Part shown: one piece after another, positions 7,029 to 52,356 of the stretch
Position numbering within the stretch: position 1 is the stretch's first letter
Layout of the letters: each line of letters opens with the position of its first letter
Origin: Naegleria gruberi
Lineage: Eukaryota
Reading direction: 5' to 3' (one strand)
Length of the DNA stretch: 64,000 bases
Assembly: GCA_000004985.1 (NCBI GenBank)
Contig: GG738930.1
Program-made: the position numbers and the translations under genes
Notes under the pieces: model-generated
What the model saw: the letters and a program-made list of their open reading frames with translations, nothing else
Database searches by the model: none
What the model was told of the DNA's origin: nothing

Positions 7029-9968
7029 ATGCCCACCAATACAATAGCCACTTCTGCTACTCCCTCAACAAACAACTCGACTGCTGCATACTCAGCAACA
7101 ACAACAAATTCCAACTCCAATTTTTTACTTCGACCCTCTTCGAGAGAACCACGAGTTATACGAAAAGCTCCAACTCCTCAGCCTTATCAATCGAAAAAGT
7201 CTGCTATCGGTCCAACTAGTGNNNNNNNNNNNNNNNNNNNNNNNNNNNNNNNNNNNNNNNNNNNNNNNNNNNNNNNNNNNNNNNNNNNNNNNNNNNNNNN
7301 NNNNNNNNNNNNNNNNNNNNNNNNNNNNNNNNNNNNNNNNNNNNNNNNNNNNNNNNNNNNNNNNNNNNNNNNNNNNNNNNNNNNNNNNNNNNNNNNNNNN
7401 NNNNNNNNNNNNNNNNNNNNNNNNNNNNNNNNNNNNNNNNNNNNNNNNNNNNNNNNNNNNNNNNNNNNNNNNNAACGAGAAGCAAAACCTCCTGGAAATT
7501 CTGAGGTTCCTCCTCTCAAGAAGAAATCTTCATCAATAACAACCACTCTAACTTCATCACCTAAGGCTGCCTCTGGAGGAGAGAAAAAAAAGGCTTCTAA
7601 TCTATCTCCCTCGCCAGTAAGAAAGAGAGGTTACGAATTGGCCACCAAGTCAAGCTCGAGTTCTTCCCTATTGAAGAATGAAGAAGGAAGTGCTGCCAAG
7701 CCATCTCAATTGAGAAAATCAGGATCGTTTACAGGGCAGAATGTCATTTCTAATAATACAAAGAAGGAAGCAAATAATGGAAAAAAGTTGGCAAGACCAA
7801 AGGGATCTGCTTTTCAAAAGAAGCGTCCTCTTGATGATAAATCTGTTTCATACAAGCTGTTGGAAGAAATTGTCAATTCAACCATTACTCAGTTTATTAA
7901 GCAAGATGGAATTTTAAGTCATAGAGACTTACGCTTAATTATTAATAAGAAGATTGCCCTCGTCAAGTCAATCCATGACAATATTATTGGATCTGAAGCT
8001 GTATTTAGAACACCATTTGGGTCGAAAAAGTATTTACCAATCACGTATTGTGATTACATTGCAACGGGGAAACCATTGAAAATGATTGAGGATTACATTT
8101 TGGAACAAGTTTTACCAACCTATGCCAACACTCATAATACAACATCTTTCACAGGTTATCAAACAACACACTTGATAGAAGATGCAAGACAAATAATTGC
8201 TCAATGTGTGAATGCCAATTTGAAAAAACCAGAAGTTGCAAGTTCAACCTGTACAGTGAGTGGGGAGTGTGCTTCACAGGAATCCAACAACACTCAGAAG
8301 GAAGACGATGAAGATGTTATTATCTTTGCTGGAAGTGGTAGTGCAGCATGTATCAATACACTCATTCACTACATTGGAATCAGACAGAAAGTGAGAGAGG
8401 CACCAAGTGAAAAGGAGCTCCCTGTTGTCATTATCTCAACACTGGAACACCACAGTAATATTCTTGCTTGGAGAGAAACTGGAGCTTGTGTGATTCAAAT
8501 TATGGAAGATAAGTACGGTAATGTCGACCTGGATGAACTACTAATTCACCTCAAACAATTCAAAGACAGTGGAAGAATGCTAATTGTCTCAATGACTGCA
8601 GCTTCAAATGTAACTGGTGTTGTGACTGATACTGAAGCTATTGCCAAGTTGGCTCACGAAAATAATGCTTGGTGCTTTTTTGACTATGCTGGAGGTGCTC
8701 CATATTTGGATATTAATGTCAATCCAAAGAATGATCCTCTTCTTGCTAAGGATGCAGTCTTTATATCCCCACACAAATTTATTGGTGGTCCAAGCACTCC
8801 TGGTGTTTTGATTGCCAAGAAGAAACTCTTTTCAAATACAGTGCCAAGTCAACCTGGTGGTGGTACAGTGACCTACAATCACAGTTATACTCCAGTTGTT
8901 GAAGAAAAGGAGGAAGGAGGCACATCAAATATTATTGGAAGCATTCGGTGTGCTCTGGTATTCAAGTTGAAGGATGAAGTTGGACCAAAATTGATTCAGA
9001 GAATTGAGGAAAAGTATAGAGATAGAGCTTTAAAGACGTGGTCAACAAATCCCAATCTTGTAATGGTTGGTCCTGGATTGGACTGTATTGGGGAGGGAAA
9101 GGTTGAAAAACTTGCCTTCTTCTCCTTTTTGGTCAAACATGAAGACTACTTTTTGCATCCATCCTATGTGAGTTTGTTGTTGAATGATCTGTTTGGACTG
9201 CAGAGCCGTCCCGGATGTTCTTGTGCTGGTCCTTACGGGGCTGAAATATTGGGCATTCAAATGACCAAGTTAAATCTTATTGAAGCTGCCATTGTTGAAT
9301 CTATCAAGTCGTCCAATAGCTTGACTTGTTTGAAGCCAGGTTGGAGTAGACTCAATTTGAACTACTTTTTCGATGATAATACTGTTCAATTTGTTTTACA
9401 GGCTGTGGACTTTGTTGCAACTCATGGCTGGAAATTATTGCCTTACTATGTTTTTGATTCAAAAACCAATGAATGGAGTCATAGAAGATTTGGAAATAAT
9501 TCACCTATGCGTTTGTCAGGATATTTTGATAACTTTACCAAATACACAGAGGAAAATAGAAAGAAACTGACAGAGGTTTCATTTTCAAATGGCTTCTTGG
9601 AGTTTGTAGATAAGAATGGAGAACTTCACAACACCGAGCCAACCACACCATTATCATACAGTAATATTTTGAAAGAAGCAGAGTCTGTATTGAGAGAATC
9701 AACAAATAACTTTAATGCACTCTACATTAACATTGAATCTGAACTTAATAATATTTTTGGTGATGAGGAGCTCGGATTAAGACATAGATATGGTAATTTG
9801 CGATGGTTCATGCTTCCTTCTGAAGCTTTAATGGACATGAAAGGTATTGAACGTGAGAAACATACAGATCCTGTGATTGTTCCAAAAGTTTACCCATCCT
9901 CAGATAGTTATATCAAGCAAAAAAAGATTGAATCAAGAACATTCCTCAAATCAAGGTTAAATAAATAA
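7029..9968 (+). CDS. class V PLP-dependent aminotransferase-like protein (cysteine desulfurase / selenocysteine lyase fold) with a long low-complexity N-terminus; spans gap 7222-7473
   Basis: ATG at 7029. The motif FISPHKFIGGPSTPGVLIAKKKLF matches the S-x-HK-x-x-GGP pyridoxal-lysine signature of class V aminotransferases. IIFAGSGSAACINTLI and ASNVTGVV..FFDYAGGAPY match the family core. The frame across the gap cannot be assessed. Confidence 0.6.
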   Translation: MPTNTIATSATPSTNNSTAAYSATTTNSNSNFLLRPSSREPRVIRKAPTPQPYQSKKSAIGPTSXXXXXXXXXXXXXXXXXXXXXXXXXXXXXXXXXXXXXXXXXXXXXXXXXXXXXXXXXXXXXXXXXXXXXXXXXXXXXXXXXXXXXREAKPPGNSEVPPLKKKSSSITTTLTSSPKAASGGEKKKASNLSPSPVRKRGYELATKSSSSSSLLKNEEGSAAKPSQLRKSGSFTGQNVISNNTKKEANNGKKLARPKGSAFQKKRPLDDKSVSYKLLEEIVNSTITQFIKQDGILSHRDLRLIINKKIALVKSIHDNIIGSEAVFRTPFGSKKYLPITYCDYIATGKPLKMIEDYILEQVLPTYANTHNTTSFTGYQTTHLIEDARQIIAQCVNANLKKPEVASSTCTVSGECASQESNNTQKEDDEDVIIFAGSGSAACINTLIHYIGIRQKVREAPSEKELPVVIISTLEHHSNILAWRETGACVIQIMEDKYGNVDLDELLIHLKQFKDSGRMLIVSMTAASNVTGVVTDTEAIAKLAHENNAWCFFDYAGGAPYLDINVNPKNDPLLAKDAVFISPHKFIGGPSTPGVLIAKKKLFSNTVPSQPGGGTVTYNHSYTPVVEEKEEGGTSNIIGSIRCALVFKLKDEVGPKLIQRIEEKYRDRALKTWSTNPNLVMVGPGLDCIGEGKVEKLAFFSFLVKHEDYFLHPSYVSLLLNDLFGLQSRPGCSCAGPYGAEILGIQMTKLNLIEAAIVESIKSSNSLTCLKPGWSRLNLNYFFDDNTVQFVLQAVDFVATHGWKLLPYYVFDSKTNEWSHRRFGNNSPMRLSGYFDNFTKYTEENRKKLTEVSFSNGFLEFVDKNGELHNTEPTTPLSYSNILKEAESVLRESTNNFNALYINIESELNNIFGDEELGLRHRYGNLRWFMLPSEALMDMKGIEREKHTDPVIVPKVYPSSDSYIKQKKIESRTFLKSRLNK
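7222..7473. other. assembly gap (N run)
   Basis: 252 consecutive n. Confidence 1.
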
Positions 9969-10823
9969 TCTATCCCTAGGTAAAATAATTCGGTTCTGTT
10001 CAATCTTGACATCTTTTACTTCGAAGAGAGTTGACAACCTATTCAACCGTATGAGGTTTCCAGAAGAAAAAATTGCCATAATATTCCATTCTTCATTGCC
10101 AGTTTCAATGATTCGTTTCATGTCCAATCCTGTTAGATTTGTTTCATGAGAATTTGAAGAATCTCTTCTTGCAAATTGAAATATCTTTTCCGAGTCTATT
10201 AGATGGGAAATAGTGGAAATACTGACCATACTTTTTAATGCAGTAAAGCTTGGGTCAAACAATATGGACAATAAAAAAGTTAAAAGTGGTAGACAAGTTG
10301 GAGCAAGATCATATTTCCTGAATGTAAAGCATGGTTTCAATTTGACTTGATTATTGTGTAGAGTTGATATTTTCGAGAGGGATATTATCTTGCAGAGTGA
10401 AACAAGAGTCGATAATTCATTTTGAATTTCATCTTGATTGTTACCATATTTATATTCTAAAAATGTCATAATATCAAAATTAAATATAAATTCCAACGAG
10501 TTTTCGCCTCTCCTTGGTAGTAGAGAGAAAAGATATTGAAACACTCTCACATAATCAATACAATCATTATCCAAAAATTCATATTCACTTCCACCAATAA
10601 AATTCCTAATTAAATTAAAATTAGAAATGGCCTTCTCCAATCCAATCAACACATCTTCCAAGTAGTATTTCTTTACAAATATATATTTGTAAATATATGA
10701 ACTTGTATGAATAGCAATGTACCATGTTCTACTGACAAGGCTACATTTAATTTGATCCGATAGGTCCAAATATTCCGTGATGACTGATACGAGGTCTTGA
10801 TGAAGAACGTCTTGTTGATTCAT
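9957..10823 (-). CDS. F-box domain protein
   Basis: The N-terminus [25 protein letters not shown] fits the F-box consensus (L..I..yLd..dl.....VsK.W). Its ATG at 10823-10821 overlaps the upstream gene's stop. Its own stop overlaps the 3' end of the convergent gene at 7029..9968 by 12 nt. Confidence 0.55.
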
Positions 10824-11713
10824 TTTTTCTTACGATTTTCCTGTTCAAAATTGTGGATCAAATCTTCTGAAATGTTCTCAAGTGGTTCCCAAGTATTATC
10901 AGAGTCAGGATAACCAGCCCACTTAACAAGGTATTCAACCTTTTTCCTTCTTGTTCTCTTACCCACTAATTTTTCTACTCTGTATTGTCCATCGTCCAGC
11001 TCGTCATCACTTTCTAAAGTTGGTGGTTCAATAACTTGTGCTGTTTTTGGTTTTCTGATTGGTGTTCTCTTTGGTGTTTCTGTTTTGGCCTTTTTGGAAG
11101 AAGAAGCTCCACCTCTCTTGATGGATTTACGTTTCTTTGGAACTTCTTCCTCTGATATTGGAGTTGTTACTTCTGTTTCGAGTCGTTTCTTACTAGGGGT
11201 TGAAGGAGGAGGTAAAATTGAAGTTGATGGTCCTGGTTGTTCACCCAGAACTTCCTTGATAAGTGAAGACTGTGCTTCGTGAACACCTGTCACTTCTGAA
11301 AAGTAATTGAATATATTTGCTAATCCAATTGGCAGATCAACACCTCTATCATCCTGATTTAAATAATCCAAAATCAACAATTGATTATAATATTGAAAAT
11401 GTTGGTCTCTGGTAAAACTGGAACCAATTTTTCTCTTTTCGATATCTAAATAATATTTAGCACAAGTTAATAGTTTTGTCTGACTATTAATCAAAGCTCC
11501 CAACATTGGAGTATCCGATCCACTTGTTGTTGTTGTTCCATTACTACTTGAAGTTCCAGCTTTTCTTCTACTAGTTGCAGTTACTGTTGTTGTTGTTGAA
11601 GATTTTGATGAAGAAGATTTACTAGCAGGAAGCTTAACTTCAGGTTCCTCGTCTTCACTACTACTACTGAGTGTGTAAGTTGCCGAAGCTTCTTTCGATC
11701 GTTTTGTAGCCAT
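10820..11713 (-). CDS. chromodomain protein (HP1-like chromo domain at the C-terminus)
   Basis: The C-terminal [38 protein letters not shown] matches the chromodomain consensus (E.iL..R...G.veYLvKWkGy...nTWEP.eNl). Starts at an ATG. The N-terminus is Ser/Thr/Lys-rich. Confidence 0.65.
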
Positions 11714-14545: not shown

Positions 14546-17500
14546 TTAAGCTTCTGTTTTTGAGGGAGAGATTGTTGGTGAAGGGTTGAGATTGTTGGTT
14601 GTTTCTGGTAAATTTTGTTGGGTGTTGGATGTTTGATTGAGTTTGAGAACAGTCAATTCGTCAACTGAACTTGATTCTAATAGATTTGTTGGAGATTGGG
14701 AGTCTATCTTGAGTTCTTGAATTTCTTGAACTGTTGGCAATGGGTTTGCATGATGTTTGTCCTTTAACAGGTATGTTTTCATTTCACCCTTTCCTTTGAC
14801 ATAGATTGATTCTCTTTCTTCAAATTCATATCCCAAATCGAATACTCTTTCATAGGTTGCTCTTGAAATTTGAATTCTTCCTGGAACACCTGTTGATTCC
14901 ATTCGAGAGGCTGTGTTGATTGTATCACCCCACAAATCGTAAGCAAACTTTTTAGTTCCAATAACACCTCCAACACATGGTCCTGTGTGCATTCCAATTC
15001 TCAAATTCACTTCCTTTCCAAATTTAATATTGAAATCTCTCAAGAATGAATAAACTGAGATTGCAAACTTTAACATTCTCTCAGGGTGGTCAGATGATTT
15101 TGAAGAGTGAGTTCCTGAAACTGCAAAGTAAGCATCTCCAATAGTTTTGATCTTGTCAATCAAATATTTCTCAGTCAACTTGTCAAATTCATTCACAATT
15201 GTGTTCAACATCATCACCAATTGATCTGCTTCCATTCCTGAAGACATTTTGGTGAAACCAACCATATCAGAAAAGAAAATCGTAACATCTGGGAACTTTT
15301 CTGCGATATAGGTTTCTCCTTGTTTCAATCTATTAGCAACTGGCAATGGCAAAATATTCAACAATAACTCTTCACTTTTCTTCTTTTCCTCACCTAGCAA
15401 CAATGAATGTTTCTTCAATTGAGTAACATCCTTCACAAAACAGGACAAGATTGGTTTACCAAGGTACTGACTGATAGAAATCGACACAAATGCAGGGAAA
15501 GTGGTCTTGTTCTTTCTCAATCCTGTCACTTCGAATGAATCTGCTGAAACACCTGTTTCCTCATTGCAAACTTTCATGGAATCAATAAGAACTGTAATCT
15601 TTTCCACATTCAATTCTGTAAATAGAGTTTCTAATCGAATTCCCAAAATCTCTTCCTTCTTATAACCAAACATATCTTCACTGGAAGGATTGAACATTAC
15701 AACCTCTCCCTTTGGATTACAGATAATGCTTCCATCTACACCACTATTCAAAATTGATCTTGTCATGTCCATATTTTCATCATCCACTTCAAGTCCAGAC
15801 ATGACTGCATTTCTTCTCTTTATCAATTTCTTCAATTTTTGAGCTGAGGATGGAACTCTATAGTTTAAAATATAGTCAATCATATCTGGTATCATGTCAA
15901 CAACATCTTTAGGAATATAATTCAACATTATTCTTAATGATTGAATTTCTCTAAAGAGATCCATCATCGCTAGATAGGAAAGCCAACCAAACACAAGAAC
16001 TGCTAATGAGCCCAGAATGGTTGAAATGATTGCCAAGTAATCTTCTGATTGTTTTGTATTCTGTACATATGTGCTTGTGAAATCGTAAATAAGCTGAACT
16101 GCAACCAGAGCTGGATAGTACAGATATGTAAAGTACTGATCAGTTTCGTATGATTTTGTGTAAAACCTTGCTTTTAAATCCTCATTAATCTCTGCTGCTA
16201 GATCTTGAAAAGAGTGAATCAACTTTTCTAAACCATAACATGAAACTCTTGTCTTCACCAAACTGTCTGGGAGAATATCCAAAGCCGGACCACTTGTGTA
16301 ATTAACCATTGAAGTATTTGAATCACACTTATAGGCAAGTAATTTGTCAATATCAGAATATTTTCCAAAAAGAGAATTGGAATAGCCCAACTCTGGAGCT
16401 CCTCTTACAGCATAAGACCAGGACATTGTAATATTCATTAATTGCTTTTGATTCCGCAAGTGTAACTCATCGGGAGTGTAATCTGACATATTTGATGCAA
16501 TAATCATCTCGGCCAACTTGAAATTCACAGAAGTTACTGAACTAAGAACGTAGTTTACAGAAGCAGCAGTTTTCATTGTAATAAACTGATTCTGTTTGTT
16601 GAGTTGGAATTCGTATATCTGAATAGGACTCACCAATGCTACTACAAAAAATGTGATTGCAGTGTATATGATAATCTTATTCTTTGGACTTAGTACAGTT
16701 TCTCCGTAATCTCCAGTTTTAGTAGATGTCAAAGTGTGATATAGCTTACCAACCTCATCCTTTTGAATCTTTCTAAAGATATGAAAAATGACCTGTCTTA
16801 TTTGAACAAAGTATTGACTCAACATGGATATATAGAACCCAACCAATACAAAATAGCATCCCAATAGAATTCCTGAACTCCATAAAAACACTTGTGAGAG
16901 GGTATCTGCTCTTTCCATGGAAAATGTCAAAAAGTATTGGCAAAACCCATCAAATGCATCGGTCATCGTCTCTCTATTGTACAGGAAGAACAAGACTGGG
17001 AAGTTTGTGGCAGTGTTATTCAATTGAACAGGATAAGAAAACTGACTGATAACTGTTGGAGCTTGAGCTGCAAACATTGCAATGAAATCCAACACTGACA
17101 CATTCATGGTTGTGTAAACCTGAGAGGATTCTCCAACTACCTGCTTGTTTGGAATTTTGTAAGTCCACTTTTGAGAGATGAAGTCATCTGTAATAGATGG
17201 AAAGAATGACTCTGTGGATGCACTCATCACATTCTTAACTAAATTTAAAACATAGTTCGCTTGCAGTGTTGCCAAATGCTGAACTGGTCCAGCAGTGGTT
17301 TCGTTCAAGTACCTGTATCTTGCTTGCAATGTTCTAACATGATTTGCCATAATGCTTGGAGCACCAGCTATTGAGCAAATCTTTTCCTCTAGTGCTGTTC
17401 TACTCGTAAACTCTGATGAAACAATCAAACTAAGAATCAACATGAATAGAATAATGAGAATGGAAATTACAATAAATGGAAGAAAAAGCATAAAGAATGA

Positions 17501-18076
17501 TTTCCTGCGCTCTGGCATGTTGATAGAATTTCTGTAGAATGCTTCCTCCCTCATAGTTTCTTCCATTCTTGCACTGATTGAATCCCAATTATCCACAACT
17601 TCATCGAATGAAACAGCATTCTTCATGGCAGCATTGGACTTACTGTGCTTCATTAATTGAGATGTAGAAGTAGCATAGGGAAGAACTCTATTTTCTGGTT
17701 GTTTTTTCTTAGTTGACTTTGCTTTCTCTTCCTCAATTTGGTTGGCTTCTTCATAAAGTTCTGCAGCCATTTCCAGTTCAAATTTGAAAGTTTCTAAGAA
17801 GTGAGCATATGCTCTCATTAAAGTCTTGTTATTCATATTGGAACTCATACTATTCTTGTATGCATTTTCACAATAATGTGTAAGATTGTGAGCTTGTCTG
17901 TTGATGTCCTCTAATTTTGTCTCTGAAGGATTTTCGCTTGAAAGCTCTTTAAAGAAATCCTGATGTAGATTAATGATCTTTGCTTGTCTCTTCTCAAGTT
18001 TTTCCAATATTTTTTGAAGTTCAAAACTCAAGGCATCACCATCTTGTGATTGCACTTCAATTTCCTTACTTCTCAA
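14546..18076 (-). CDS. membrane-anchored PAS-domain adenylate/guanylate cyclase (class III catalytic domain); the true 5' end lies in gap 18117-19306
   Basis: The canonical catalytic motifs are present: VTIFFSDMVGFT, KTIGDAYFAVSG, RIGMHTGPCVGGVIG and WGDTINTASRMES. A PAS-like segment (ICNPKGEVVMFNPSSEDMFGYKKEEILG) precedes the catalytic domain and a hydrophobic multi-TM block lies upstream. The track's first codon at 18076 is TTG. Hand translation upstream (..RHSPSFVQLFHFYLRSKEIEV) stays open to the gap edge and matches the paralogue's N-terminus, so the real ATG is inside the gap. Confidence 0.8.
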   Translation of the reverse strand: MRSKEIEVQSQDGDALSFELQKILEKLEKRQAKIINLHQDFFKELSSENPSETKLEDINRQAHNLTHYCENAYKNSMSSNMNNKTLMRAYAHFLETFKFELEMAAELYEEANQIEEEKAKSTKKKQPENRVLPYATSTSQLMKHSKSNAAMKNAVSFDEVVDNWDSISARMEETMREEAFYRNSINMPERRKSFFMLFLPFIVISILIILFMLILSLIVSSEFTSRTALEEKICSIAGAPSIMANHVRTLQARYRYLNETTAGPVQHLATLQANYVLNLVKNVMSASTESFFPSITDDFISQKWTYKIPNKQVVGESSQVYTTMNVSVLDFIAMFAAQAPTVISQFSYPVQLNNTATNFPVLFFLYNRETMTDAFDGFCQYFLTFSMERADTLSQVFLWSSGILLGCYFVLVGFYISMLSQYFVQIRQVIFHIFRKIQKDEVGKLYHTLTSTKTGDYGETVLSPKNKIIIYTAITFFVVALVSPIQIYEFQLNKQNQFITMKTAASVNYVLSSVTSVNFKLAEMIIASNMSDYTPDELHLRNQKQLMNITMSWSYAVRGAPELGYSNSLFGKYSDIDKLLAYKCDSNTSMVNYTSGPALDILPDSLVKTRVSCYGLEKLIHSFQDLAAEINEDLKARFYTKSYETDQYFTYLYYPALVAVQLIYDFTSTYVQNTKQSEDYLAIISTILGSLAVLVFGWLSYLAMMDLFREIQSLRIMLNYIPKDVVDMIPDMIDYILNYRVPSSAQKLKKLIKRRNAVMSGLEVDDENMDMTRSILNSGVDGSIICNPKGEVVMFNPSSEDMFGYKKEEILGIRLETLFTELNVEKITVLIDSMKVCNEETGVSADSFEVTGLRKNKTTFPAFVSISISQYLGKPILSCFVKDVTQLKKHSLLLGEEKKKSEELLLNILPLPVANRLKQGETYIAEKFPDVTIFFSDMVGFTKMSSGMEADQLVMMLNTIVNEFDKLTEKYLIDKIKTIGDAYFAVSGTHSSKSSDHPERMLKFAISVYSFLRDFNIKFGKEVNLRIGMHTGPCVGGVIGTKKFAYDLWGDTINTASRMESTGVPGRIQISRATYERVFDLGYEFEERESIYVKGKGEMKTYLLKDKHHANPLPTVQEIQELKIDSQSPTNLLESSSVDELTVLKLNQTSNTQQNLPETTNNLNPSPTISPSKTEA

Positions 18077-20529
18077 ATAGAAATGGAATAGTTGGACGAA
18101 ACTTGGACTATGTCTCNNNNNNNNNNNNNNNNNNNNNNNNNNNNNNNNNNNNNNNNNNNNNNNNNNNNNNNNNNNNNNNNNNNNNNNNNNNNNNNNNNNN
18201 NNNNNNNNNNNNNNNNNNNNNNNNNNNNNNNNNNNNNNNNNNNNNNNNNNNNNNNNNNNNNNNNNNNNNNNNNNNNNNNNNNNNNNNNNNNNNNNNNNNN
18301 NNNNNNNNNNNNNNNNNNNNNNNNNNNNNNNNNNNNNNNNNNNNNNNNNNNNNNNNNNNNNNNNNNNNNNNNNNNNNNNNNNNNNNNNNNNNNNNNNNNN
18401 NNNNNNNNNNNNNNNNNNNNNNNNNNNNNNNNNNNNNNNNNNNNNNNNNNNNNNNNNNNNNNNNNNNNNNNNNNNNNNNNNNNNNNNNNNNNNNNNNNNN
18501 NNNNNNNNNNNNNNNNNNNNNNNNNNNNNNNNNNNNNNNNNNNNNNNNNNNNNNNNNNNNNNNNNNNNNNNNNNNNNNNNNNNNNNNNNNNNNNNNNNNN
18601 NNNNNNNNNNNNNNNNNNNNNNNNNNNNNNNNNNNNNNNNNNNNNNNNNNNNNNNNNNNNNNNNNNNNNNNNNNNNNNNNNNNNNNNNNNNNNNNNNNNN
18701 NNNNNNNNNNNNNNNNNNNNNNNNNNNNNNNNNNNNNNNNNNNNNNNNNNNNNNNNNNNNNNNNNNNNNNNNNNNNNNNNNNNNNNNNNNNNNNNNNNNN
18801 NNNNNNNNNNNNNNNNNNNNNNNNNNNNNNNNNNNNNNNNNNNNNNNNNNNNNNNNNNNNNNNNNNNNNNNNNNNNNNNNNNNNNNNNNNNNNNNNNNNN
18901 NNNNNNNNNNNNNNNNNNNNNNNNNNNNNNNNNNNNNNNNNNNNNNNNNNNNNNNNNNNNNNNNNNNNNNNNNNNNNNNNNNNNNNNNNNNNNNNNNNNN
19001 NNNNNNNNNNNNNNNNNNNNNNNNNNNNNNNNNNNNNNNNNNNNNNNNNNNNNNNNNNNNNNNNNNNNNNNNNNNNNNNNNNNNNNNNNNNNNNNNNNNN
19101 NNNNNNNNNNNNNNNNNNNNNNNNNNNNNNNNNNNNNNNNNNNNNNNNNNNNNNNNNNNNNNNNNNNNNNNNNNNNNNNNNNNNNNNNNNNNNNNNNNNN
19201 NNNNNNNNNNNNNNNNNNNNNNNNNNNNNNNNNNNNNNNNNNNNNNNNNNNNNNNNNNNNNNNNNNNNNNNNNNNNNNNNNNNNNNNNNNNNNNNNNNNN
19301 NNNNNNCAGTCAGCTCTCTCCATAGAAGTATCCAAAAATGATCTACAAAACCAATCAAAAGCCTCAGACATTGTCTCTCTATTGTAGAGGAAGAAAAGAA
19401 CTGGAAAATTTGTTGAAGTGTCGTTCAGTTGGGCAGGAGAGCTCAATTGAGAAATTGCTCTACCAGCATGATTTTCAAACATGTTTAAAAATTCCAAAAC
19501 AGATACATTCATGGTAGAATAGAGTTGTGTAGATTCTCCTACAACTTGTTTGTTTGGAACCTTGTACAAAAACTTTTGGGCAATAAAATCTTCAGTAACA
19601 GCTGGGAAGAATGATGAGGAAGATGCACTCAATACATTATTAATCAATGTTGTAACATAGCTGGTCTGAACAGTAGCTAAGGCATGAGCGGTACTTGCTG
19701 AAGATTCATTCAAATATCTATACCTAGCTTGAATAGAACGAATGTGATTGGCCATAATGCTTGGAGCACCAGCTATTGAGCAAATCTTTTCTTCTAACAC
19801 TGTTCTACTGGTAAATTCTGACGAAAAGACCAGAGACATTGTTAATAAAATTAATAAAACAAGGAATGAAACAATCACAAACGGTAAAAATGTGAAATAA
19901 TAGGATTTTCTGTGTTCTGGAGTGTTGATTGAATTTCTATAGAAGGCTTCTTGTTTCATTGATTCTTCCATTCTTGCACTGATCGAATCCCAGTTATCTA
20001 CAACTTCATCGAATGATACTCCATGTTTCAGAGTGTCTGATTTCCTTCTTTTCATAAGTGATGACTCTTCTGAGGCACTGGTATAAGGAACTACTCTATT
20101 ACTTTTTGAATGAGACTGCTTGTTGGTTTTGGATTTCTCTTCCTCAATTTGATTAGCCTCCTCATATAATTCATTGGCCACTTCAATCTCAAATCTAAAT
20201 ATCTCCAAAAAGTATGCGTAAGCTCTCAACAGGGTCTTGTTGTTCATATTGGTATACATGCAATTCTTGTATGCATTTTCACAAAATATTATCAAATTAT
20301 TGGATTTTCTGTTAATCTTTTCAAGTTTGTCCTCAGAAGGATTTTCACTGGAAAGCTCTTTGAAAAATTCCTGGTGCAATGCCAGTATCTGAGATTGTTT
20401 CTTATCGAGTCTCTCTAATAATTTTTTAACTTCATAACTAACATTAGCATAATTCTCAGAGTTGGCTTCAATCTCTTTGCATCTCAAAAAGTAATGGAAA
20501 ACTTGAACGAAATTTGGGTTTTGTTTCAA
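18073..20529 (-). CDS. PAS-cyclase paralogue, N-terminal part (C-terminal catalytic part lost in gap 18117-19306)
   Basis: About 70% identical to the gene at 14546..18076 over the N-terminal coiled region, the TM block and the FPVLFFLYNRETM segment. The first codon reported at 20529 is TTG, and an in-frame TGA lies 6 codons upstream. The conserved N-terminal block therefore has no in-frame ATG. The annotated 3' end at 18073 is a TGA that actually lies inside the downstream paralogue's 5' coding extension, in a different frame. Confidence 0.6.
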   Translation of the reverse strand: MKQNPNFVQVFHYFLRCKEIEANSENYANVSYEVKKLLERLDKKQSQILALHQEFFKELSSENPSEDKLEKINRKSNNLIIFCENAYKNCMYTNMNNKTLLRAYAYFLEIFRFEIEVANELYEEANQIEEEKSKTNKQSHSKSNRVVPYTSASEESSLMKRRKSDTLKHGVSFDEVVDNWDSISARMEESMKQEAFYRNSINTPEHRKSYYFTFLPFVIVSFLVLLILLTMSLVFSSEFTSRTVLEEKICSIAGAPSIMANHIRSIQARYRYLNESSASTAHALATVQTSYVTTLINNVLSASSSSFFPAVTEDFIAQKFLYKVPNKQVVGESTQLYSTMNVSVLEFLNMFENHAGRAISQLSSPAQLNDTSTNFPVLFFLYNRETMSEAFDWFCRSFLDTSMERADXXXXXXXXXXXXXXXXXXXXXXXXXXXXXXXXXXXXXXXXXXXXXXXXXXXXXXXXXXXXXXXXXXXXXXXXXXXXXXXXXXXXXXXXXXXXXXXXXXXXXXXXXXXXXXXXXXXXXXXXXXXXXXXXXXXXXXXXXXXXXXXXXXXXXXXXXXXXXXXXXXXXXXXXXXXXXXXXXXXXXXXXXXXXXXXXXXXXXXXXXXXXXXXXXXXXXXXXXXXXXXXXXXXXXXXXXXXXXXXXXXXXXXXXXXXXXXXXXXXXXXXXXXXXXXXXXXXXXXXXXXXXXXXXXXXXXXXXXXXXXXXXXXXXXXXXXXXXXXXXXXXXXXXXXXXXXXXXXXXXXXXXXXXXXXXXXXXXXXXXXXXXXXXXXXXXXXXXXXXXXXXXXXXXXXXXXXXXXXDIVQVSSNYSISI
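18117..19306. other. assembly gap (N run)
   Basis: 1190 n. Confidence 1.
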
Positions 20530-22211
20530 ACTCTTCTCATTATTTCAACTGCAAGGGCTGTGTTTCCACTTTCTGTGGTGCTAGCTGGGGCATTATTACC
20601 AACAAAGCTTGCTGCCATGATTAACAAGTTGACATCTGTAACACTACGTAAGTTTGCTGATTTGATGAATTTTCTTGCCAACTCCAAATCTGAACCTTCT
20701 CCACCCTTTGTTTTCAATGTGTTAAATTTAATGAACATGATAATACTCTTGTTCATCTTTTTTGTTGTCAATTCAGAGACAATATTGGATACGGAATGGC
20801 TGTCTGAAAAGTATTCGTTCAATACTGTTCTTATCGATCTCATCTTTAGTCTTGTATAAATTTCCATAATCACATATCCAAGTATGAAACCAACAATCAT
20901 CAGAGCCAATGTTATTCCTGTTAAGATTCCTCCAATTAATTCCTTGTCAATGGTTGAATCTCTTGTGACAAGCAAACAAACAAGAGGTCCTAAACTTCCC
21001 AAAGCCCTTGAAACTCCAACTCCACAATAAACACAATTCTCCCACCTTCTGTAGAAGGGTATTGCCACAAATAGTGAAACAATAAAGAGAATGCTCAACA
21101 AGAATTTGATACCAGCGGAAATAACACACAACTCATAAGTTAAAACTACTGTCAGTATGATACCAACTTGGTTATTGAGTAACAAGAGACATAGTGGATA
21201 AATTCTATCTAGTACGAATACTGTCCTGGTTCCTCTTGTTGGAATAGTTTCATATACAAGATAAAAACCTAATACAGAAATACCTAGTGTCAAAATTGCC
21301 CCTATACATCCAATAACAATGAGACCAATGTTAACAGAGGCTGTAAATAATGGTGTTGTGAAATGTTTCATATAAATTTCGGTTGATGATGATGTGGAGA
21401 AGATATTCATGTTAACAGCTAGAGGGTATGTATGTACAAAAAGCATGAATGGTGAAAGTATAATTACAATTATTATGAATAGTCTGGATACCATTTTGAT
21501 TTTGTCATTGTATCTGCTTCCATTCTTGATTCCTACTCTGTATGCATAAAAGCAAATCAAACATAGAATTTCAACGAATAGCCATATTGCAGAAAATGTA
21601 TAAACTAGCTCATAAGGATAATATTGTATTCCAAAATCAAGAGGAAAATGCAAAACTCTCCAAATCCAACCACCAACAACACCCCACATTGCTCCACTAC
21701 TCTCCTCACTCGCAGTCGTTGTTATTGAACAGGTTATCAAAGAATAGTATATCATGTAAATATGTAACATAATCCATGCGACTGCTTGGTATTTGCTCTT
21801 GATGAAAGATTCATTCCTCTTGAAAGAAACAATAAATTCAAATATGGAATTACGAAATGCTAGTAATGGTGATTGAGGATTTGTAAAGGCTGATGATGAA
21901 TAACTGGTATTACTTCCCACATAGGAAGCTTCACCCTTATTCATTGGTTGATTTGCAACTTCTTCATCTTGCGAGTTTTTGATGGGTTTTCCCCAATATT
22001 GGTCATCATCTTCATCTTCCATCAAATTCTTTGTGCTTCCATGTGAGGATGGTGTTGGAATAGGTGAGGAATGATGTTGTTGATGTTGAGAATGATGTGG
22101 ATCTAAATGATGCACAGATGTATTGCTCTTGTCTCGCCTTATCGAGATGGGCTGAGGATCATCACCATTGCCCAATGTTGTTGTTGTTGTATTGATGTGA
22201 GGGTGAGACAT
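20526..22211 (-). CDS. polytopic membrane protein (about 10 predicted TM helices) with a His/Gln-rich N-terminus
   Basis: ATG at 22211. Repeated 20-25 aa hydrophobic segments. No family recognised. The stop TGA (20528-20526) overlaps the TTG at 20529-20527 that the track used as the start of the next ORF. Confidence 0.5.
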   Translation of the reverse strand: MSHPHINTTTTTLGNGDDPQPISIRRDKSNTSVHHLDPHHSQHQQHHSSPIPTPSSHGSTKNLMEDEDDDQYWGKPIKNSQDEEVANQPMNKGEASYVGSNTSYSSSAFTNPQSPLLAFRNSIFEFIVSFKRNESFIKSKYQAVAWIMLHIYMIYYSLITCSITTTASEESSGAMWGVVGGWIWRVLHFPLDFGIQYYPYELVYTFSAIWLFVEILCLICFYAYRVGIKNGSRYNDKIKMVSRLFIIIVIILSPFMLFVHTYPLAVNMNIFSTSSSTEIYMKHFTTPLFTASVNIGLIVIGCIGAILTLGISVLGFYLVYETIPTRGTRTVFVLDRIYPLCLLLLNNQVGIILTVVLTYELCVISAGIKFLLSILFIVSLFVAIPFYRRWENCVYCGVGVSRALGSLGPLVCLLVTRDSTIDKELIGGILTGITLALMIVGFILGYVIMEIYTRLKMRSIRTVLNEYFSDSHSVSNIVSELTTKKMNKSIIMFIKFNTLKTKGGEGSDLELARKFIKSANLRSVTDVNLLIMAASFVGNNAPASTTESGNTALAVEIMRRV

Positions 22212-42741: not shown

Positions 42742-43505
42742 NNNNNNNNNNNNNNNNNNNNNNNNNNNNNNNNNNNNNNNNNNNNNNNNNNNNNNNNNNN
42801 NNNNNNNNNNNNNNNNNNNNNNNNNNNNNNNNNNNNNNNNNNNNNNNNNNNNNNNNNNNNNNNNNNNNNNNNNNNNNNNNNNNNNNNNNNNNNNNNNNNN
42901 NNNNNNNNNNNNNNNNNNNNNNNNNNNNNNNNNNNNNNNNNNNNNNNNNNNNNNNNNNNNNNNNNNNNNNNNNNNNNNNNNNNNNNNNNNNNNNNNNNNN
43001 NNNNNNNNNNNNNNNNNNNNNNNNNNNNNNNNNNNNNNNNNNNNNNNNNNNNNNNNNNNNNNNNNNNNNNNNNNNNNNNNNNNNNNNNNNNNNNNNNNNN
43101 NNNNNNNNNNNNNNNNNNNNNNNNNNNNNNNNNNNNNNNNNNNNNNNNNNNNNNNNNNNNNNNNNNNNNNNNNNNNNNNNNNNNNNNNNNNNNNNNNNNN
43201 NNNNNNNNNNNNNNNNNNNNNNNNNNNNNNNNNNNNNNNNNNNNNNNNNNNNNNNNNNNNNNNNNNNNNNNNNNNNNNNNNNNNNNNNNNNNNNNNNNNN
43301 NNNNNNNNNNNNNNNNNNNNNNNNNNNNNNNNNNNNNNNNNNNNNNNNNNNNNNNNNNNNNNNNNNNNNNNNNNNNNNNNNNNNNNNNNNNNNNNNNNNN
43401 NNNNNNNNNNNNNNNNNNNNNNNNNNNNNNNNNNNNNNNNNNNNNNNNNNNNNNNNNNNNNNNNNNNNNNNNNNNNNNNNNNNNNNNNNNNNNNNNNNNN
43501 NNNNN
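42742..43505. other. assembly gap (N run)
   Basis: 764 n. Confidence 1.
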
Positions 43506-47446: not shown

Positions 47447-50400
47447 ATGAAGAAGAATTGCTTGTTGCAGGCTAGTGTGGGTCTTATTGTGGCGACTTTG
47501 TGTTGTATGGTAGCCTTTGAAGGCTTGGTTGTGGAGGCTGTTGTTCAACCTACTCCTACTGTGTCATTCGATTATCTTAGTGGCTTGAAGTTTAATTTCA
47601 CTCTCGGATTAAATCTTCAAGATAGTGGAAATGTTTGTAAGATTGGTGTCATTGATGGCATGTATTCATCTCTCAAGGCTCTTAATCAAAGCTCTAATTA
47701 TACATTGTATACTGTTCCTTGTATTGGTTCTTCAGTACTCAAGGTTCCATACTATGGTTATCCATTCACCAAATTCTTGTACAAGTATGACAATGTCAAA
47801 TATAGCTCGATTTCCAAAGAGTATTATGGTTATTTCCCAACCTTCTCTGCTGTTCTAGGTAATATCACTCANAGCAGTGTGGTTTATTCTANNNNNNNNN
47901 NNNNNNNNNNNNNNNNNNNNNNNNNNNNNNNNNNNNNNNNNNNNNNNNNNNNNNNNNNNNNNNNNNNNNNNNNNNNNNNNNNNNNNNNNNNNNNNNNNNN
48001 NNNNNNNNNNNNNNNNNNNNNNNNNNNNNNNNNNNNNNNNNNNNNNNNNNNNNNNNNNNNNNNNNNNNNNNNNNNNNNNNNNNNNNNNNNNNNNNNNNNN
48101 NNNNNNNNNNNNNNNNNNNNNNNNNNNNNNNNNNNNNNNNNNNNNNNNNNNNNNNNNNNNNNNNNNNNNNNNNNNNNNNNNNNNNNNNNNNNNNNNNNNN
48201 NNNNNNNNNNNNNNNNNNNNNNNNNNNNNNNNNNNNNNNNNNNNNNNNNNNNNNNNNNNNNNNNNNNNNNNNNNNNNNNNNNNNNNNNNNNNNNNNNNNN
48301 NNNNNNNNNNNNNNNNNNNNNNNNNNNNNNNNNNNNNNNNNNNNNNNNNNNNNNNNNNNNNNNNNNNTATGCAATGAAAAATGGTTATGTATTGCTAACG
48401 AAACTTCAACTTGTTTCGGTAAGAATAGTACCGATAGTTCTGTTTGCTCAGGACATGGTACTTGTTCTGCAGGAGTTTGTAAATGCAGTCCTGGTTACAC
48501 TGGTGGCAATTGTTCTCTTCCAATTTGTTTCTCACTTGATGCCTCTGAATTTGGTGTTTGTTATGGCAATGGTAAATGTGTAGGACCTGACACTTGTAAG
48601 TGTGACTCTCTCTTCTCTGGAATGGAATGTGAAACACCAACTTGTAATGGTAAGACAGAACTCGATGGTGGTTGTTCATTCCGTGGTACTTGTAATTCCT
48701 ACTCTCACTTGTGTGAATGTAAAGGAAACTTTGCTGGATCATCTTGTTCATCTTGTAAAAGTGGTTTCACTGGTACAAGTTGTGAAATTCCAATTTGTAA
48801 TGGTATTAGCTCAATTGACAAGTCAGTTTGTAATGGAAGGGGATCCTGTTCTTCAGTCAATGGTTCATCTCCAGTGTGTGTCTGTTCAGGAAATTATTAC
48901 GGTGCAAACTGTGGTTCCTTCAAATGTAATGGTCTTGAAAGATCCAACTCTTCAGTCTGTTCTTCAAGAGGTTCATGTCTTTCACCTGATACTTGCTCAT
49001 GTAAAGGAAACTACGATCCTGCCTCATACTGTTCCAAATGTCTTCCTTCATACTCTGGTTCTGATTGTACTGTTGCAGTGTGTGATAGTGCAACTACTTG
49101 TAATAGTAAGGGTACTTGTAATGACAAGCTTCAATGTGTTTGTAGTGGAAACTACGCTGGTACATATTGTGACAAGTGTAAAGATGGTTTTGTAGGTACA
49201 TCTTGTCAATACTCATGTTCTGCTGCTACTACTTGTAATGGCAAAGGTACTTGTTCTCAAATTGGTGAATGTATCTGTTCTGGAAATACTAATGGAAAGA
49301 AATGTGAGAATTGTAATGCTGGTTGGTATGGAGATAAGTGTGATTTCAATATTGATACTACTTCTTTCGAATTTAATGAGAATGGTGATTCTATCATTGC
49401 TACTGTTAAGAGCAGTATCAAGAAGAAGATTTCATGCTCTTCTCTCATTACTAATACTCATGTATTAGGAAGTGAACCTTCCTGTTTGTTGGATGGTGAG
49501 AAGAGTCAATTGGTTATTCAACTTGGTCCAATGGCAACTATTGTTATTGGTGGTAGTTTGAGTGTTAGAGCATACATTGATAGTAGTTCAGTTTCTTCTG
49601 TAACTGTTAAGGGCACCAACTACAAGTCTGTTGAGCCATCTGCTTATTTAACTTCTGACATTTCTTCTATTGCTTGTGGTAATATGATTTTGGACTCTTC
49701 TGCTTCATCCTCATTGGATAGAAGACAATTGATTTTCAGTTATTCAGCAACTCTTGCTCCTTCTAATCAAGATATTACACTTCTTAACTCACTTATTAGT
49801 GGCTCTACTGACAGCTTTGTCAAATTCCCAGTTAGTCAATTAAGTGCTGGTACCTATTCCGTCCAAGTTGCTGTACAAAGCTCATTCTCTGGAAAAGTTT
49901 CATATGCTACTTATACTTTCTCAGTTACTGAATCATCTCCTCCAACTTTGACCATTAGAAATGGTGCTTCTAGTTCAATTACTATCGGTAATTCATTGGC
50001 TATTGTTCCAGTTGTTACATTCCCATCTTGTTATCGTGGAAATCCATCCGCAAGTAGTTTGAAATACACCTACACTCAAACAAGTGGTCCAAGTCTTCAA
50101 ATCAAGCAAAAGAATGAACTTTTGGTCTTTAGCTCAGATTATACTCAACTTACCGAAGAAGGTGACTATGTATTCACTTTGAAGGCATCTGAGCCTGGAT
50201 ATCCAGAAGCATCAGTTTCATTCAAGGTTTCAGCATCTGCTCTCCCATTACAAGTTTCTTTCAATATTAGAGATATGAGTCAATCTTTGGAAGACAATGT
50301 CAAGTTTAGAATTACAAAGAAAGATCCAAGCAATCCTACTTCTACAGATGGTCAAGTTAAACTTACTTGTACTGATTTGGAGACTTTAGCTTCATGCACT

Positions 50401-52356
50401 GGTTTTGACAATGGATTGAATATTGATCAATCAACTTTGTTGTTCGATAAGCAATTTACACCTGGTAGCTACATGTTCACTGCTGTTTTCAGCAAGTCTT
50501 CAAGATCTTCAAGTACTTCAGTCAAGGTAATTGTCACTAGTCAAACTAAGGCAACTTCAGTAAGAATTTACATTGATACTCCTTCAGGATCTGATGTTTC
50601 AGCTATTGATCCATCCAATGATTTGATCTTGCAAGCACAAAGCTTGGATCTTCTCTCCCCTCAAAGAGTATTCTCTTGGTCTTCCAGTGACTTTACCTTT
50701 GATTCTACTATTGATTTAACAAAGAAATATTTAACAATTCCAAAGAGTTTACTTGCTCCAGGTGCTTCATACTCTGTCTCTATTACTGTCACTGATGGTG
50801 TCAAGACTGGTCAAGCCAGTATTTCATTCATCGTTAATGCTCCACCATCCTTAGGTATTTTTGAAGTTTCTCCATCTACAGGTGTAGCTTTAGTTGATGA
50901 ATTCAAAGTTTCATGTGGTAATGGTTGGTCAGATTCTCAACTTCCTCTTTCATTCAAATTCGTGTTCAGACAAAAGGGAGAAGAAATTTGGAAGGTATTG
51001 AAAGAAAAGTCTGAAACAAGATCTTTCAGAACTTCCATGCCAACTGGTCAATTGGAAATCAAGGCTATTGTTTATGATGCTAAGGGCGCTTTCACTGAAA
51101 CCACTTCAAATATTAATGTCACTACTCCAGTTGATGTTAGTTCAGCTATTCAATCTTTGTCCGTGTTGACTACTTCTACCTTGACTCCTTCCTCTGCTTC
51201 ATCAGCTTTGAGTGTCATTTTGGCAGTTAAACCAACCACAGCTGAAGATAAACAAAAATTGGTGGCAGCTGGTTTGAAGATTGTTCAAGCATACTTTGCT
51301 CAAATGGATGCTGAACAAAATGTCACTTCCCAAACAGAAGCTTCAACAAGTTCATCCTTGTCTGTTATTTCCTCAGTCAGTACTTGTGTTGAAAATCTTC
51401 CAGACGAAACTGTTAGTTTGACCATTACCAAATTCAAAGCAATGATTGAAGGTGCTTACTTGCTTCTCAAACTTGCAAGTCAAGATATCAACTCAGCACT
51501 TGACAGCGCTGCTTCAATTCAAACTCACGTTTCCAAGAAGGTCACTTCAAGATCTGTACTTTTCACTAAAGACGAAGTCAAGAGCATTGATTCTATCAAG
51601 GATACATTACTTTCACTCCAATTGAAGAATGCAGTTCCTGATATGCCTGCAACAAGAACATTCGGATCTGATTCTTTCTCTTATGCAAGATTACTCAGTG
51701 TTTCTACATTGAGCAGCTTGAATGAAACCATCAATTCAGTTTCATCATTCAAACTCTCTGCAACATTCAACAGTTTGAGTCAAGTTTCAAGCTTGGATAA
51801 TGTCAAATTAGTTATGAAAGTTCAAACTCAAGCTAAGGCAGTTTCCAAACTAGTTACTTTCAGAGTAGAATCCAATGATGTAGATGTTGGTGTTTCATCC
51901 AATTCCAATACCACCTACATTGCTGAATTCAATATTGAAAAGAATCCATCAACTAGAAATATTAGAGAAACTAGAAATGTATGTTCAGTATTACAAAATG
52001 GTGTTTTGGTTGCAGCAAGTGGATGTACCATTTCTTCAACATCTGGTGGAATGTTCACCATTCAAGTTTCTTCATCTGGATCTTATGCCGTTGTCAGTGA
52101 AGAAGTTGTTGCTCCACAAGCTTCTCCAAAAACTAGCTCATCAAAGACAACCACCGTGATTACAACCAAATCAAACAATCTTGAATACCTTGCCTTCCTC
52201 GTTTTACTCGTTCCAGTAATTGCTGTCGTTGTTATCATTATTATTGTGGTTGTGTGCTGTCTCAGAAAGAAGAAGACTAAATACACGAAAGGACAACATG
52301 AAAGAAACTTTGAAGACAAGTCATTCATGGAATTGAATGAAATGAGAGAAATTTAA
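47447..52356 (+). CDS. type I membrane protein: signal peptide, EGF-like repeat array, long Ser/Thr-rich ectodomain, single C-terminal TM and short basic tail; spans gap 47892-48367
   Basis: ATG at 47447 with signal peptide (LLQASVGLIVATLCCMVAFEG). After the gap, my hand translation from 48370 is stop-free and already in the EGF frame (CNEKWLCIANETSTCFGKNSTDSSVCSGHGTCSAGVCKCSPGYTGGNCS..). It continues into ORF 48622..52356 with about 13 C.G.G.C.....C.C.G.(Y/F).G..C EGF units. A roughly 1000-aa S/T-rich region follows, then TM LAFLVLLVPVIAVVVIIIIVVVCCL and then RKKKTKY... Confidence 0.65.
47892..48367. other. assembly gap (N run)
   Basis: 476 n, plus a single n at 47872. Confidence 1.

What the first reader, a model, noticed from the sequence alone, without database searches (positions are those of the whole stretch)
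18073..20529. Apparent 4-nt stop/start overlaps (TTGA) between three consecutive genes are start-codon artefacts, and the second PAS-cyclase has no in-frame ATG for its conserved N-terminus
The ORF track places gene boundaries at 20526-20529 and 18073-18076 as TTGA overlaps, where a TGA stop overlaps a TTG read as M. By hand, both first codons are TTG. For the gene at 14546..18076 the frame stays open upstream to the gap (..RHSPSFVQLFHFYL) and aligns with the paralogue's N-terminus (NPNFVQVFHYFL). Its real start is therefore in the gap. The TGA at 18073 is not the paralogue's true stop. For the gene at 18073..20529 an in-frame TGA lies 6 codons upstream of the conserved block. No in-frame ATG occurs until about 90 residues downstream. 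The first explanation is a conserved N-terminus supplied by an unrecognised upstream exon. The second is an N-terminally truncated or inactivated copy. The third is one gene that is frameshifted relative to 20526..22211.
Basis: seen in the sequence. Interest (0 to 1): 0.5.

Follow-up and report, generated by a model that had tools for sequence, protein, structure and literature searches.

The report
Split cyclase gene in draft assembly
The odd gene boundaries come from running a bacterial ORF finder on a gapped draft of the amoeba Naegleria gruberi: the first two "genes" are one membrane PAS-cyclase gene broken by a one-base frame error or mutation, and this is ordinary.

Summary
The window is Naegleria gruberi; the only near-identical database protein is XP_002669227.1 (NAEGRDRAFT_54380). 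The TTG "starts" and TTGA overlaps come from bacterial ORF calling. ORF 18073..20529 runs through 1190 N (18117-19306), so its stop is meaningless.

ORF 22211..20526 (561 aa, multi-TM) and fragment 20529..19307 (407 aa, TPR_TmcB) belong to one gene:
- 70 homologues from Naegleria and Willaertia were found. The full-length ones (1582-1763 aa) carry multi-TM, TPR_TmcB, TMs, PAS and cyclase in one chain.
- About 50 of them align across the junction in a single BLASTP HSP, and MAFFT shows no gap there.
- Adding one base within 20527-20547 scores 741 bits against a family HMM. The best GT-AG intron scores 684 bits.
- An N. fowleri homologue has no intron at this position.
- There is no slippery site or downstream RNA structure.

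The third ORF (18115..14546) is the 3' 1189 codons of a paralogue (65% identity) whose 5' end lies in the gap. The public model is a chimera of all three pieces.

Two points stay unresolved. The one-base defect may be an assembly error or a real mutation. The gap may hide 3.4 kb or more (two full genes) or about 1.2 kb (one gene with a duplicated module). Interest is low.

The parts
20526..22211 (-). Gene A, 5' part: ATG at 22211-22209, 561 codons, TGA at 20528-20526. It has a low-complexity head followed by a multi-pass membrane domain, with at least 7 strongly hydrophobic segments between residues 202 and 443.
   Evidence: ORF. No Pfam hit. 70 homologues were found, and in the long ones this region is the N-terminal ~535 residues. 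Hydropathy scan.
20527..20547 (-). Frame-break interval. The upstream frame must change to the -1 frame between the TGA of the downstream frame (20547-20545) and the TGA of the upstream frame (20528-20526). Adding one base restores a single ORF reading ...ALAVEIMRRVLKQNPNFVQVF... The most likely position is 20527-20539, and the longest homopolymer there is TTT at 20530-20528.
   Evidence: No slippery heptamer. No downstream RNA structure, z = +0.74.
19307..20529 (-). Gene A, continuation: 407 codons that run into the assembly gap. It holds a TPR_TmcB domain (residues 17-134, 20481..20128) and a transmembrane helix (about 19881..19825).
   Evidence: Pfam PF25474, E = 2.7e-12. 65% identical to gene B. 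Single HSPs to homologues run across 20529.
18117..19306 (.). Assembly gap of 1190 N. It hides the 3' part of gene A and the 5' part of gene B, or the middle of one larger gene.
14546..18115 (-). Gene B, 3' part: 1189 codons plus a stop. It holds TPR_TmcB (18067..17717), four hydrophobic segments, PAS_9 (15736..15419) and a class III cyclase domain (15304..14762). The stop is at 14548-14546.
   Evidence: Pfam, (Guanylate_cyc 8e-60, PAS_9 8.4e-16, TPR_TmcB 3.3e-14). Residues 1-1132 align to residues 543-1683 of N. fowleri P0015.

Best explanation
The window is a gapped draft of Naegleria gruberi, a eukaryote. The three 'genes' are not three genes.

ORF 22211..20526 and fragment 20529..19307 are the N-terminal membrane domain and the following TPR_TmcB/membrane region of one gene of a heterolobosean family. 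This family has about 1600-1750 aa per protein. Its layout is a multi-pass membrane domain, TmcB-type TPR, four TM segments with large loops, PAS, and a class III cyclase.

The two pieces are out of frame because the assembly is one base short (or, less well supported, two bases long) somewhere in 20527-20547. The TTG 'start' and the TTGA overlap follow from that.

The rest of gene A lies in the 1190-N gap. ORF 14546..18115 is the 3' two-thirds of a 65%-identical paralogous copy of the same architecture, and its 5' end lies in the same gap.

Shown here: the single-gene architecture, the position and size of the frame break, and the absence of an intron or slippery site.

Inferred: the break is either a base-calling or assembly error or a very recent mutation, roughly even odds. 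Also inferred: the protein acts as a membrane sensor that makes cAMP as a homodimer. Gene B keeps the class III metal, substrate and transition-state motifs FFSDMVGFT, KTIGDAY and YDLWGDTINTASRMES. That is my reading of the sequence against textbook class III motifs, not a test.
For: Organism and public model:
- P0001 = XP_002669227.1 (NAEGRDRAFT_54380) maps to 22211-21687, 20481-19723 and 18073-14549.

Homologues of the 561-aa ORF:
- There are 70, from N. gruberi, N. fowleri, N. lovaniensis and Willaertia magna.
- Five of the six scanned are long (1400-1685 aa) and carry TPR_TmcB right after that region, then PAS. Four of those also carry the cyclase domain.

Continuity across the junction:
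- BLASTP of the plain concatenation gives one HSP across the junction in about 50 homologues, for example P0010 q106-963, E = 7e-147.
- The MAFFT alignment is gap-free through EIMRRV|LKQNPNF.
- Scores against an HMM of 20 homologues: +1 nt 740.7 bits; -2 nt 733.3; best GT-AG intron 683.6; the two pieces separately 354.2 + 350.0.
- Only insertions between the two TGAs give an open frame. Positions 20527-20539 score best.

Other mechanisms:
- N. fowleri P0015 encodes residues 1-935, junction included, in one exon.
- There is no X XXY YYZ heptamer.
- The downstream 107 nt fold no better than shuffles.

Both copies are constrained:
- dN = 0.23 with synonymous sites saturated.
Against: No independent sequence of this locus was found:
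- The exact 561-aa product is not in the 15-billion-protein collection.
- No other near-identical protein exists.
- The metagenome scan for the junction was empty.
So error and real mutation cannot be separated, and expression is untested.

The interval holds no long homopolymer (TTT at most), so a classic homopolymer miscall is not especially favoured.

The written gap (1190 N) is about three times too small to hold the missing parts of two full-length genes.
Confidence: 0.9

Rival explanations
1. The frame break is a real, recent 1-nt deletion in strain NEG-M, possibly in one allele only. Gene A would then be a young pseudogene, or would be expressed only as a 561-aa membrane protein. This is a sub-case of the best explanation: it assumes the same gene and differs only in the cause of the break.
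For: The break lies in the sequence as given and not next to a long homopolymer. The family is large and lineage-expanded: 70 relatives, and at least 81 cyclases in Naegleria according to PMC9928731. Such families shed copies. The gap looks too small for two intact genes, which would fit a decaying copy.
Against: Both flanking ORFs are intact over 561 and 407 codons in a 34% GC genome, where random frames close after a few dozen codons at most. Any inactivation would therefore be very recent. The window has 10 gaps in 64 kb, which points to poorly covered draft sequence where base errors are expected.
Confidence: 0.4
2. All three ORFs are one gene of about 2550 aa. The module 'TPR_TmcB + four TM segments' would be tandemly duplicated between the N-terminal membrane domain and the PAS-cyclase. 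The gap would then be about as long as written.
For: With the written gap, the two TPR starts are 2414 nt (805 codons) apart. That is close to the 793 residues from TPR start to PAS start in gene B. All gaps in the window are 1190 nt or shorter. Four TM segments per module keep the topology consistent. The exhaustive search found no protein about 65% identical to the 561-aa region, which a second N-terminus would be; the best hits are 34-43%.
Against: Of 68 family proteins with this module, only the chimeric model of this very locus has two copies. Gap lengths are estimates. The two frames do not match across 1190 N, although that carries little weight.
Confidence: 0.25
3. A spliceosomal intron joins the upstream ORF to the conserved block.
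For: GT...AG pairs of length 2 mod 3 exist, for example 20603..20536 at 68 nt. N. gruberi does have introns, and the N. fowleri homologue has three.
Against: The residues on both sides of 20529 align to homologues without a gap, and the two frames overlap by one base, so nothing is left over to be an intron. Every candidate intron removes conserved residues and scores at least 57 bits lower than the 1-nt repair. None has a strong donor sequence. The N. fowleri homologue has no intron there.
Confidence: 0.03
4. A programmed -1 ribosomal frameshift joins the two frames.
For: The required shift is -1, and a stop codon follows at once.
Against: There is no X XXY YYZ heptamer in the permitted interval. 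There is no stable downstream structure: MFE -10.5 kcal/mol, z = +0.74. Homologues encode the junction in one frame.
Confidence: 0.01

Closest known systems
Naegleria/Willaertia membrane PAS-adenylate/guanylate cyclases. Examples: N. gruberi NAEGRDRAFT_71437 (XP_002673480.1), N. fowleri FDP41_007173 (XP_044558499.1) and FDP41_008555, N. lovaniensis C9374_003576, W. magna ABK040_006139.
   Same: They share the domain order: multi-TM, TPR_TmcB, TM segments, PAS_9, Guanylate_cyc. They align end to end at 25-40% identity.
   Different: In this locus the gene is interrupted by a 1-nt frame break and by an assembly gap, and a 65%-identical second copy follows in tandem.
The public gene model of this locus: XP_002669227.1 / EFC36483.1 / NAEGRDRAFT_54380 (1602 aa).
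   Same: It is built from the same DNA, and 100% of its residues map to the window.
   Different: It is a chimera. It skips most of the membrane domain with a 1.2-kb 'intron' (21686..20482). It treats 19722..18074, which includes the N gap, as a second 'intron'. It therefore contains two TPR_TmcB modules.
Proteins carrying the TmcB/TmcC TPR domain (Pfam PF25474). The Pfam family is named after TmcB; my recollection, not checked here, is that this is the Dictyostelium 'tiny macrocysts' protein.
   Same: Both copies match the TPR_TmcB model (47 and 53 bits against a cut-off of 27). In Naegleria the domain sits after a multi-pass membrane region.
   Different: Here the module is fused to PAS and a class III cyclase. 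I did not compare it with the Dictyostelium proteins themselves.

Membership tests
Class III adenylate/guanylate cyclase (PF00211) | Catalytic cyclase homology domain above the Pfam gathering score | tested here: met
   Gene B scores 202 bits, E = 8e-60, covering profile positions 3-182 of 183. In gene A this part would lie in the gap and cannot be seen.
Class III adenylate/guanylate cyclase (PF00211) | Metal-binding Asp pair, substrate-defining Lys/Asp, transition-state Asn/Arg | tested here: inconclusive
   The motifs FFSDMVGFT, KTIGDAY and YDLWGDTINTASRMES are visible in the gene B translation. I assigned them to catalytic roles from memory of class III enzymes, not with a tool.
Heterolobosean multi-TM, TPR_TmcB, PAS, cyclase family | N-terminal multi-pass region homologous to that of full-length members | tested here: met
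   The 561-aa ORF hits 70 proteins. P0010 gives E = 2e-67, q81-559 against residues 40-533 of 1596.
Heterolobosean multi-TM, TPR_TmcB, PAS, cyclase family | TPR_TmcB directly after the membrane region, in the same polypeptide | tested here: met
   This holds in the homologues. In the window the two parts abut at 20529 but in different frames. The concatenation aligns without a gap.
Heterolobosean multi-TM, TPR_TmcB, PAS, cyclase family | One uninterrupted reading frame | tested here: not met
   There is a frame break within 20527-20547. Whether it is an error or a mutation cannot be told with these tools.
Spliceosomal intron at the junction | A GT-AG interval whose removal restores the frame and preserves homology | tested here: not met
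   Frame-restoring candidates exist, but each loses at least 57 bits against the family HMM. The N. fowleri homologue has none at this position.
Programmed -1 ribosomal frameshift | Slippery heptamer X XXY YYZ plus a downstream stimulatory structure | tested here: not met
   No heptamer. The downstream fold has z = +0.74.
Bacterial-style translational coupling (4-nt stop/start overlap) | A prokaryotic genome with real TTG/ATG starts overlapping stops | tested here: not met
   The organism is the eukaryote N. gruberi. One 'stop' is read across 1190 N. The other 'start' lies inside a conserved domain boundary.

The most novel reading that the evidence does not exclude
The written gap length is about right, and the whole interval 22211..14546 is one gene of about 2550 aa. 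Its TPR_TmcB + four-TM sensor module would be tandemly duplicated (65% identity, both copies under purifying selection) ahead of a single PAS-cyclase. This two-module architecture was seen in none of the other 67 family members examined.
Probability: 0.2. Interest if true: 0.3.

Novelty: already known. Interest (0 to 1): 0.12.

Why it matters
The value is mainly in cleaning up an annotation. The RefSeq/UniProt entry for this locus (XP_002669227.1, D2W3A5_NAEGR) is a chimera of two paralogous copies and lacks most of its membrane domain. Domain counts or phylogenies of Naegleria cyclases that include it are slightly wrong.

The case also shows the signature to expect when bacterial ORF calling is applied to gapped eukaryotic drafts: TTG "starts", 4-nt overlaps and N-filled ORFs. 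No new biology follows, unless the single-gene, duplicated-module reading turns out to be true.

Tried and rejected
I used the 561-aa ORF instead.
- The word-indexed protein search found only the locus's own model for the concatenation. For gene B it found only distant PAS or cyclase hits. It missed all the Naegleria paralogues that the exhaustive search found.
- Exact-sequence look-ups for contigs encoding P0001 and P0010 returned nothing. The exact 561-aa product is not in the collection.
- A scan of JGI metagenome contigs for the junction, allowing 2-5 bases at the T run, found nothing. No independent read of the site is therefore available.
- The literature search for TmcB gave only unrelated acronyms. 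The N. gruberi genome paper is not in the searchable library.
- Intron hypothesis: candidates enumerated, scored and rejected.
- Programmed frameshift: checked and rejected.
- TGA read-through or recoding: rejected by reading the frames. The upstream frame past the TGA gives NKTQISFKFSITF*, which is non-homologous.
- Homology could not place the missing base more precisely than about 20527-20539.
Full report
**What the sequence shows**

Four long ORFs are listed on the minus strand between 14546 and 22211, and three concern this finding:
- 20526..22211: ATG start, 561 aa.
- 18073..20529: TTG start, 818 aa.
- 14546..18076: TTG start, 1176 aa.

Each junction is a TTGA in which a TGA stop overlaps a TTG. 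The window contains ten runs of N. One of them, 18117-19306 (1190 N), lies inside the middle ORF. That ORF is therefore 407 real codons (20529..19309), about 397 X, and 13 codons read in a frame that means nothing on the far side of the gap.

The third ORF's frame is open up to the gap edge at 18116. It reads RHSPSFVQLFHFYLRSKEIE, parallel to LKQNPNFVQVFHYFLRCKEIE in the middle ORF. The two stretches are 65% identical over 407 aa.

In the frame of the middle ORF a TGA lies six codons upstream of the TTG (20547-20545), and the first Met is residue 91.

**Where the window comes from**

The only near-identical protein among 5.8 billion is 'predicted protein [Naegleria gruberi]', XP_002669227.1 / NAEGRDRAFT_54380, 1602 aa. 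It maps back onto the window in three blocks: 22211-21687, 20481-19723 and 18073-14549.

The blocks are joined by GT-AG 'introns'. One is 1.2 kb long and removes most of the first ORF. The other spans the N gap. The public model is thus a chimera of all three ORFs.

Neighbouring ORFs carry F-box, Chromo, RGS and REJ/EGF domains, which fits a eukaryote. TTG starts and 4-nt stop/start coupling are bacterial conventions with no standing here.

**What the pieces are**

Pfam finds the following:
- 561-aa ORF: no domain.
- 407-aa fragment: TPR_TmcB (PF25474) at residues 17-134.
- Third ORF: TPR_TmcB, PAS_9 and Guanylate_cyc.

A hydropathy scan gives at least seven strongly hydrophobic segments in the 561-aa ORF. 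It gives one in the visible part of the middle fragment and four in the third ORF.

**One gene or two? Homologues decide**

An exhaustive HMMER search with the 561-aa ORF found 70 relatives, 41 of them with E ≤ 1e-10. Where they carry names, they come from N. gruberi, N. fowleri, N. lovaniensis and Willaertia magna.

In the long ones the matching region is the N-terminal ~535 residues of a 1400-1808-aa protein. I scanned six. Five are long (1400-1685 aa) and have TPR_TmcB immediately after that region and PAS further on. Four of those also have the cyclase domain.

BLASTP of the plain concatenation (561 + 407 aa) against these proteins gives a single HSP running through the junction in about 50 of them. 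An example is P0010, q106-963 against s70-951, E = 7e-147.

A MAFFT alignment of 17 homologues is gap-free through ...ALAVEIMRRV|LKQNPNFVQVFHYFLR.... The family consensus is of the type 'LL+KA.K..PN'.

Against an HMM built from 20 homologues the bit scores were as follows:

| Reconstruction | Bits |
|---|---|
| One base added | 740.7 |
| Two bases removed | 733.3 |
| Best of 14 frame-restoring GT-AG introns | 683.6 |
| The two pieces scored separately | 354.2 + 350.0 |

Only insertions between the two TGAs (20547..20527) give an open frame. Positions 20527-20539 score best, at 740-743 bits, and homology cannot narrow it further.

In N. fowleri, the gene for P0015 encodes residues 1-935, junction included, in one exon.

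The required shift is -1, but the interval has no X XXY YYZ heptamer. The 107 nt downstream fold no better than shuffled sequence, z = +0.74.

The first two ORFs are therefore one gene. They are split by a 1-nt defect, not by an intron or by recoding.

**The third ORF**

Its first visible residue aligns to residue 467-565 of thirteen full-length homologues, and it then runs to their C-termini. It is the 3' 1189 codons of a second copy of the same architecture.

The two copies are far closer to each other (65%) than to any other family member (25-40%). Between them dN = 0.23 and synonymous sites are saturated (pS = 0.75). The duplication is old and both copies have been kept under constraint.

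**What cannot be settled here**

(a) Error or mutation. No independent sequence of the site was found.
- For an error: this is draft sequence with a gap every ~6 kb, and the flanking ORFs are perfectly intact in an AT-rich genome.
- For a real lesion: the interval has no long homopolymer, and the family is large.
- I put the odds near even.

(b) What the gap hides. Two complete genes would need roughly 590-830 codons of gene A plus 470-560 codons of gene B. That is about 3.4 kb or more, and about 3.9 kb with typical values, against 1190 N.

With the written gap the two TPR starts are 805 codons apart, about the distance from TPR start to PAS start in gene B. That would fit a single gene with an internal duplication of the TPR + 4-TM module.

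Against this, only the chimeric model of this locus has two such modules among 68 family proteins. PCR across the gap would decide.

**Likely function (inferred)**

The product is a multi-pass membrane sensor of a heterolobosean family that couples a TmcB-type TPR/membrane module and a PAS domain to a class III cyclase. Gene B retains motifs that I read, from general knowledge of class III enzymes, as the metal-binding, adenine-specifying and transition-state residues. It is probably an active homodimeric adenylate cyclase. Naegleria is reported to have at least 81 cyclases (PMC9928731).

**Verdict**

The feature is an artefact of ORF calling, an assembly gap and a single-base frame defect in a member of a known gene family. 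Interest is low. The useful by-product is that the public model NAEGRDRAFT_54380 is chimeric.

Noticed in passing
window 9957-11713, minus strand: A second 4-nt stop/start overlap (ATGA at 10820-10823). It lies between a 297-aa ORF ending in a Chromo domain (10820..11713) and a 288-aa ORF beginning with an F-box (9957..10823). In a eukaryote this could be another frame error or a mis-set start.
   Followed up: no
window 18117-19306: The written gap (1190 N) is about three times too short for the missing parts of two full-length family genes. It matches the length expected if the TPR + 4-TM module were duplicated inside one gene.
   Followed up: partly
window 14546-22211; public protein XP_002669227.1: The RefSeq/UniProt model NAEGRDRAFT_54380 is a chimera. 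It combines 175 aa of the membrane domain, 253 aa of copy A and 1175 aa of copy B, with one 'intron' drawn across the N gap.
   Followed up: yes
window 47447-52356, plus strand: ORFs 47447..48583 and 48622..52356 are only 38 nt apart. The first is broken by gap 47892-48367, and the second carries REJ and EGF domains. They may be one gene.
   Followed up: no
window 11819-14125, 33489-35657, 38237-40513, 42711-45872: Several other long ORFs 'start' inside or just beyond an N run. Ns read as X inflate ORFs and give false TTG/GTG starts throughout this window.
   Followed up: no
N. fowleri proteins P0087/P0088 versus P0089: In one N. fowleri annotation a family member is split into adjacent genes of 178 aa and 1512 aa (FDP41_007427/007428). 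Another annotation has a single 1724-aa protein (CAG4714363.1). Split models of this family appear to recur.
   Followed up: no
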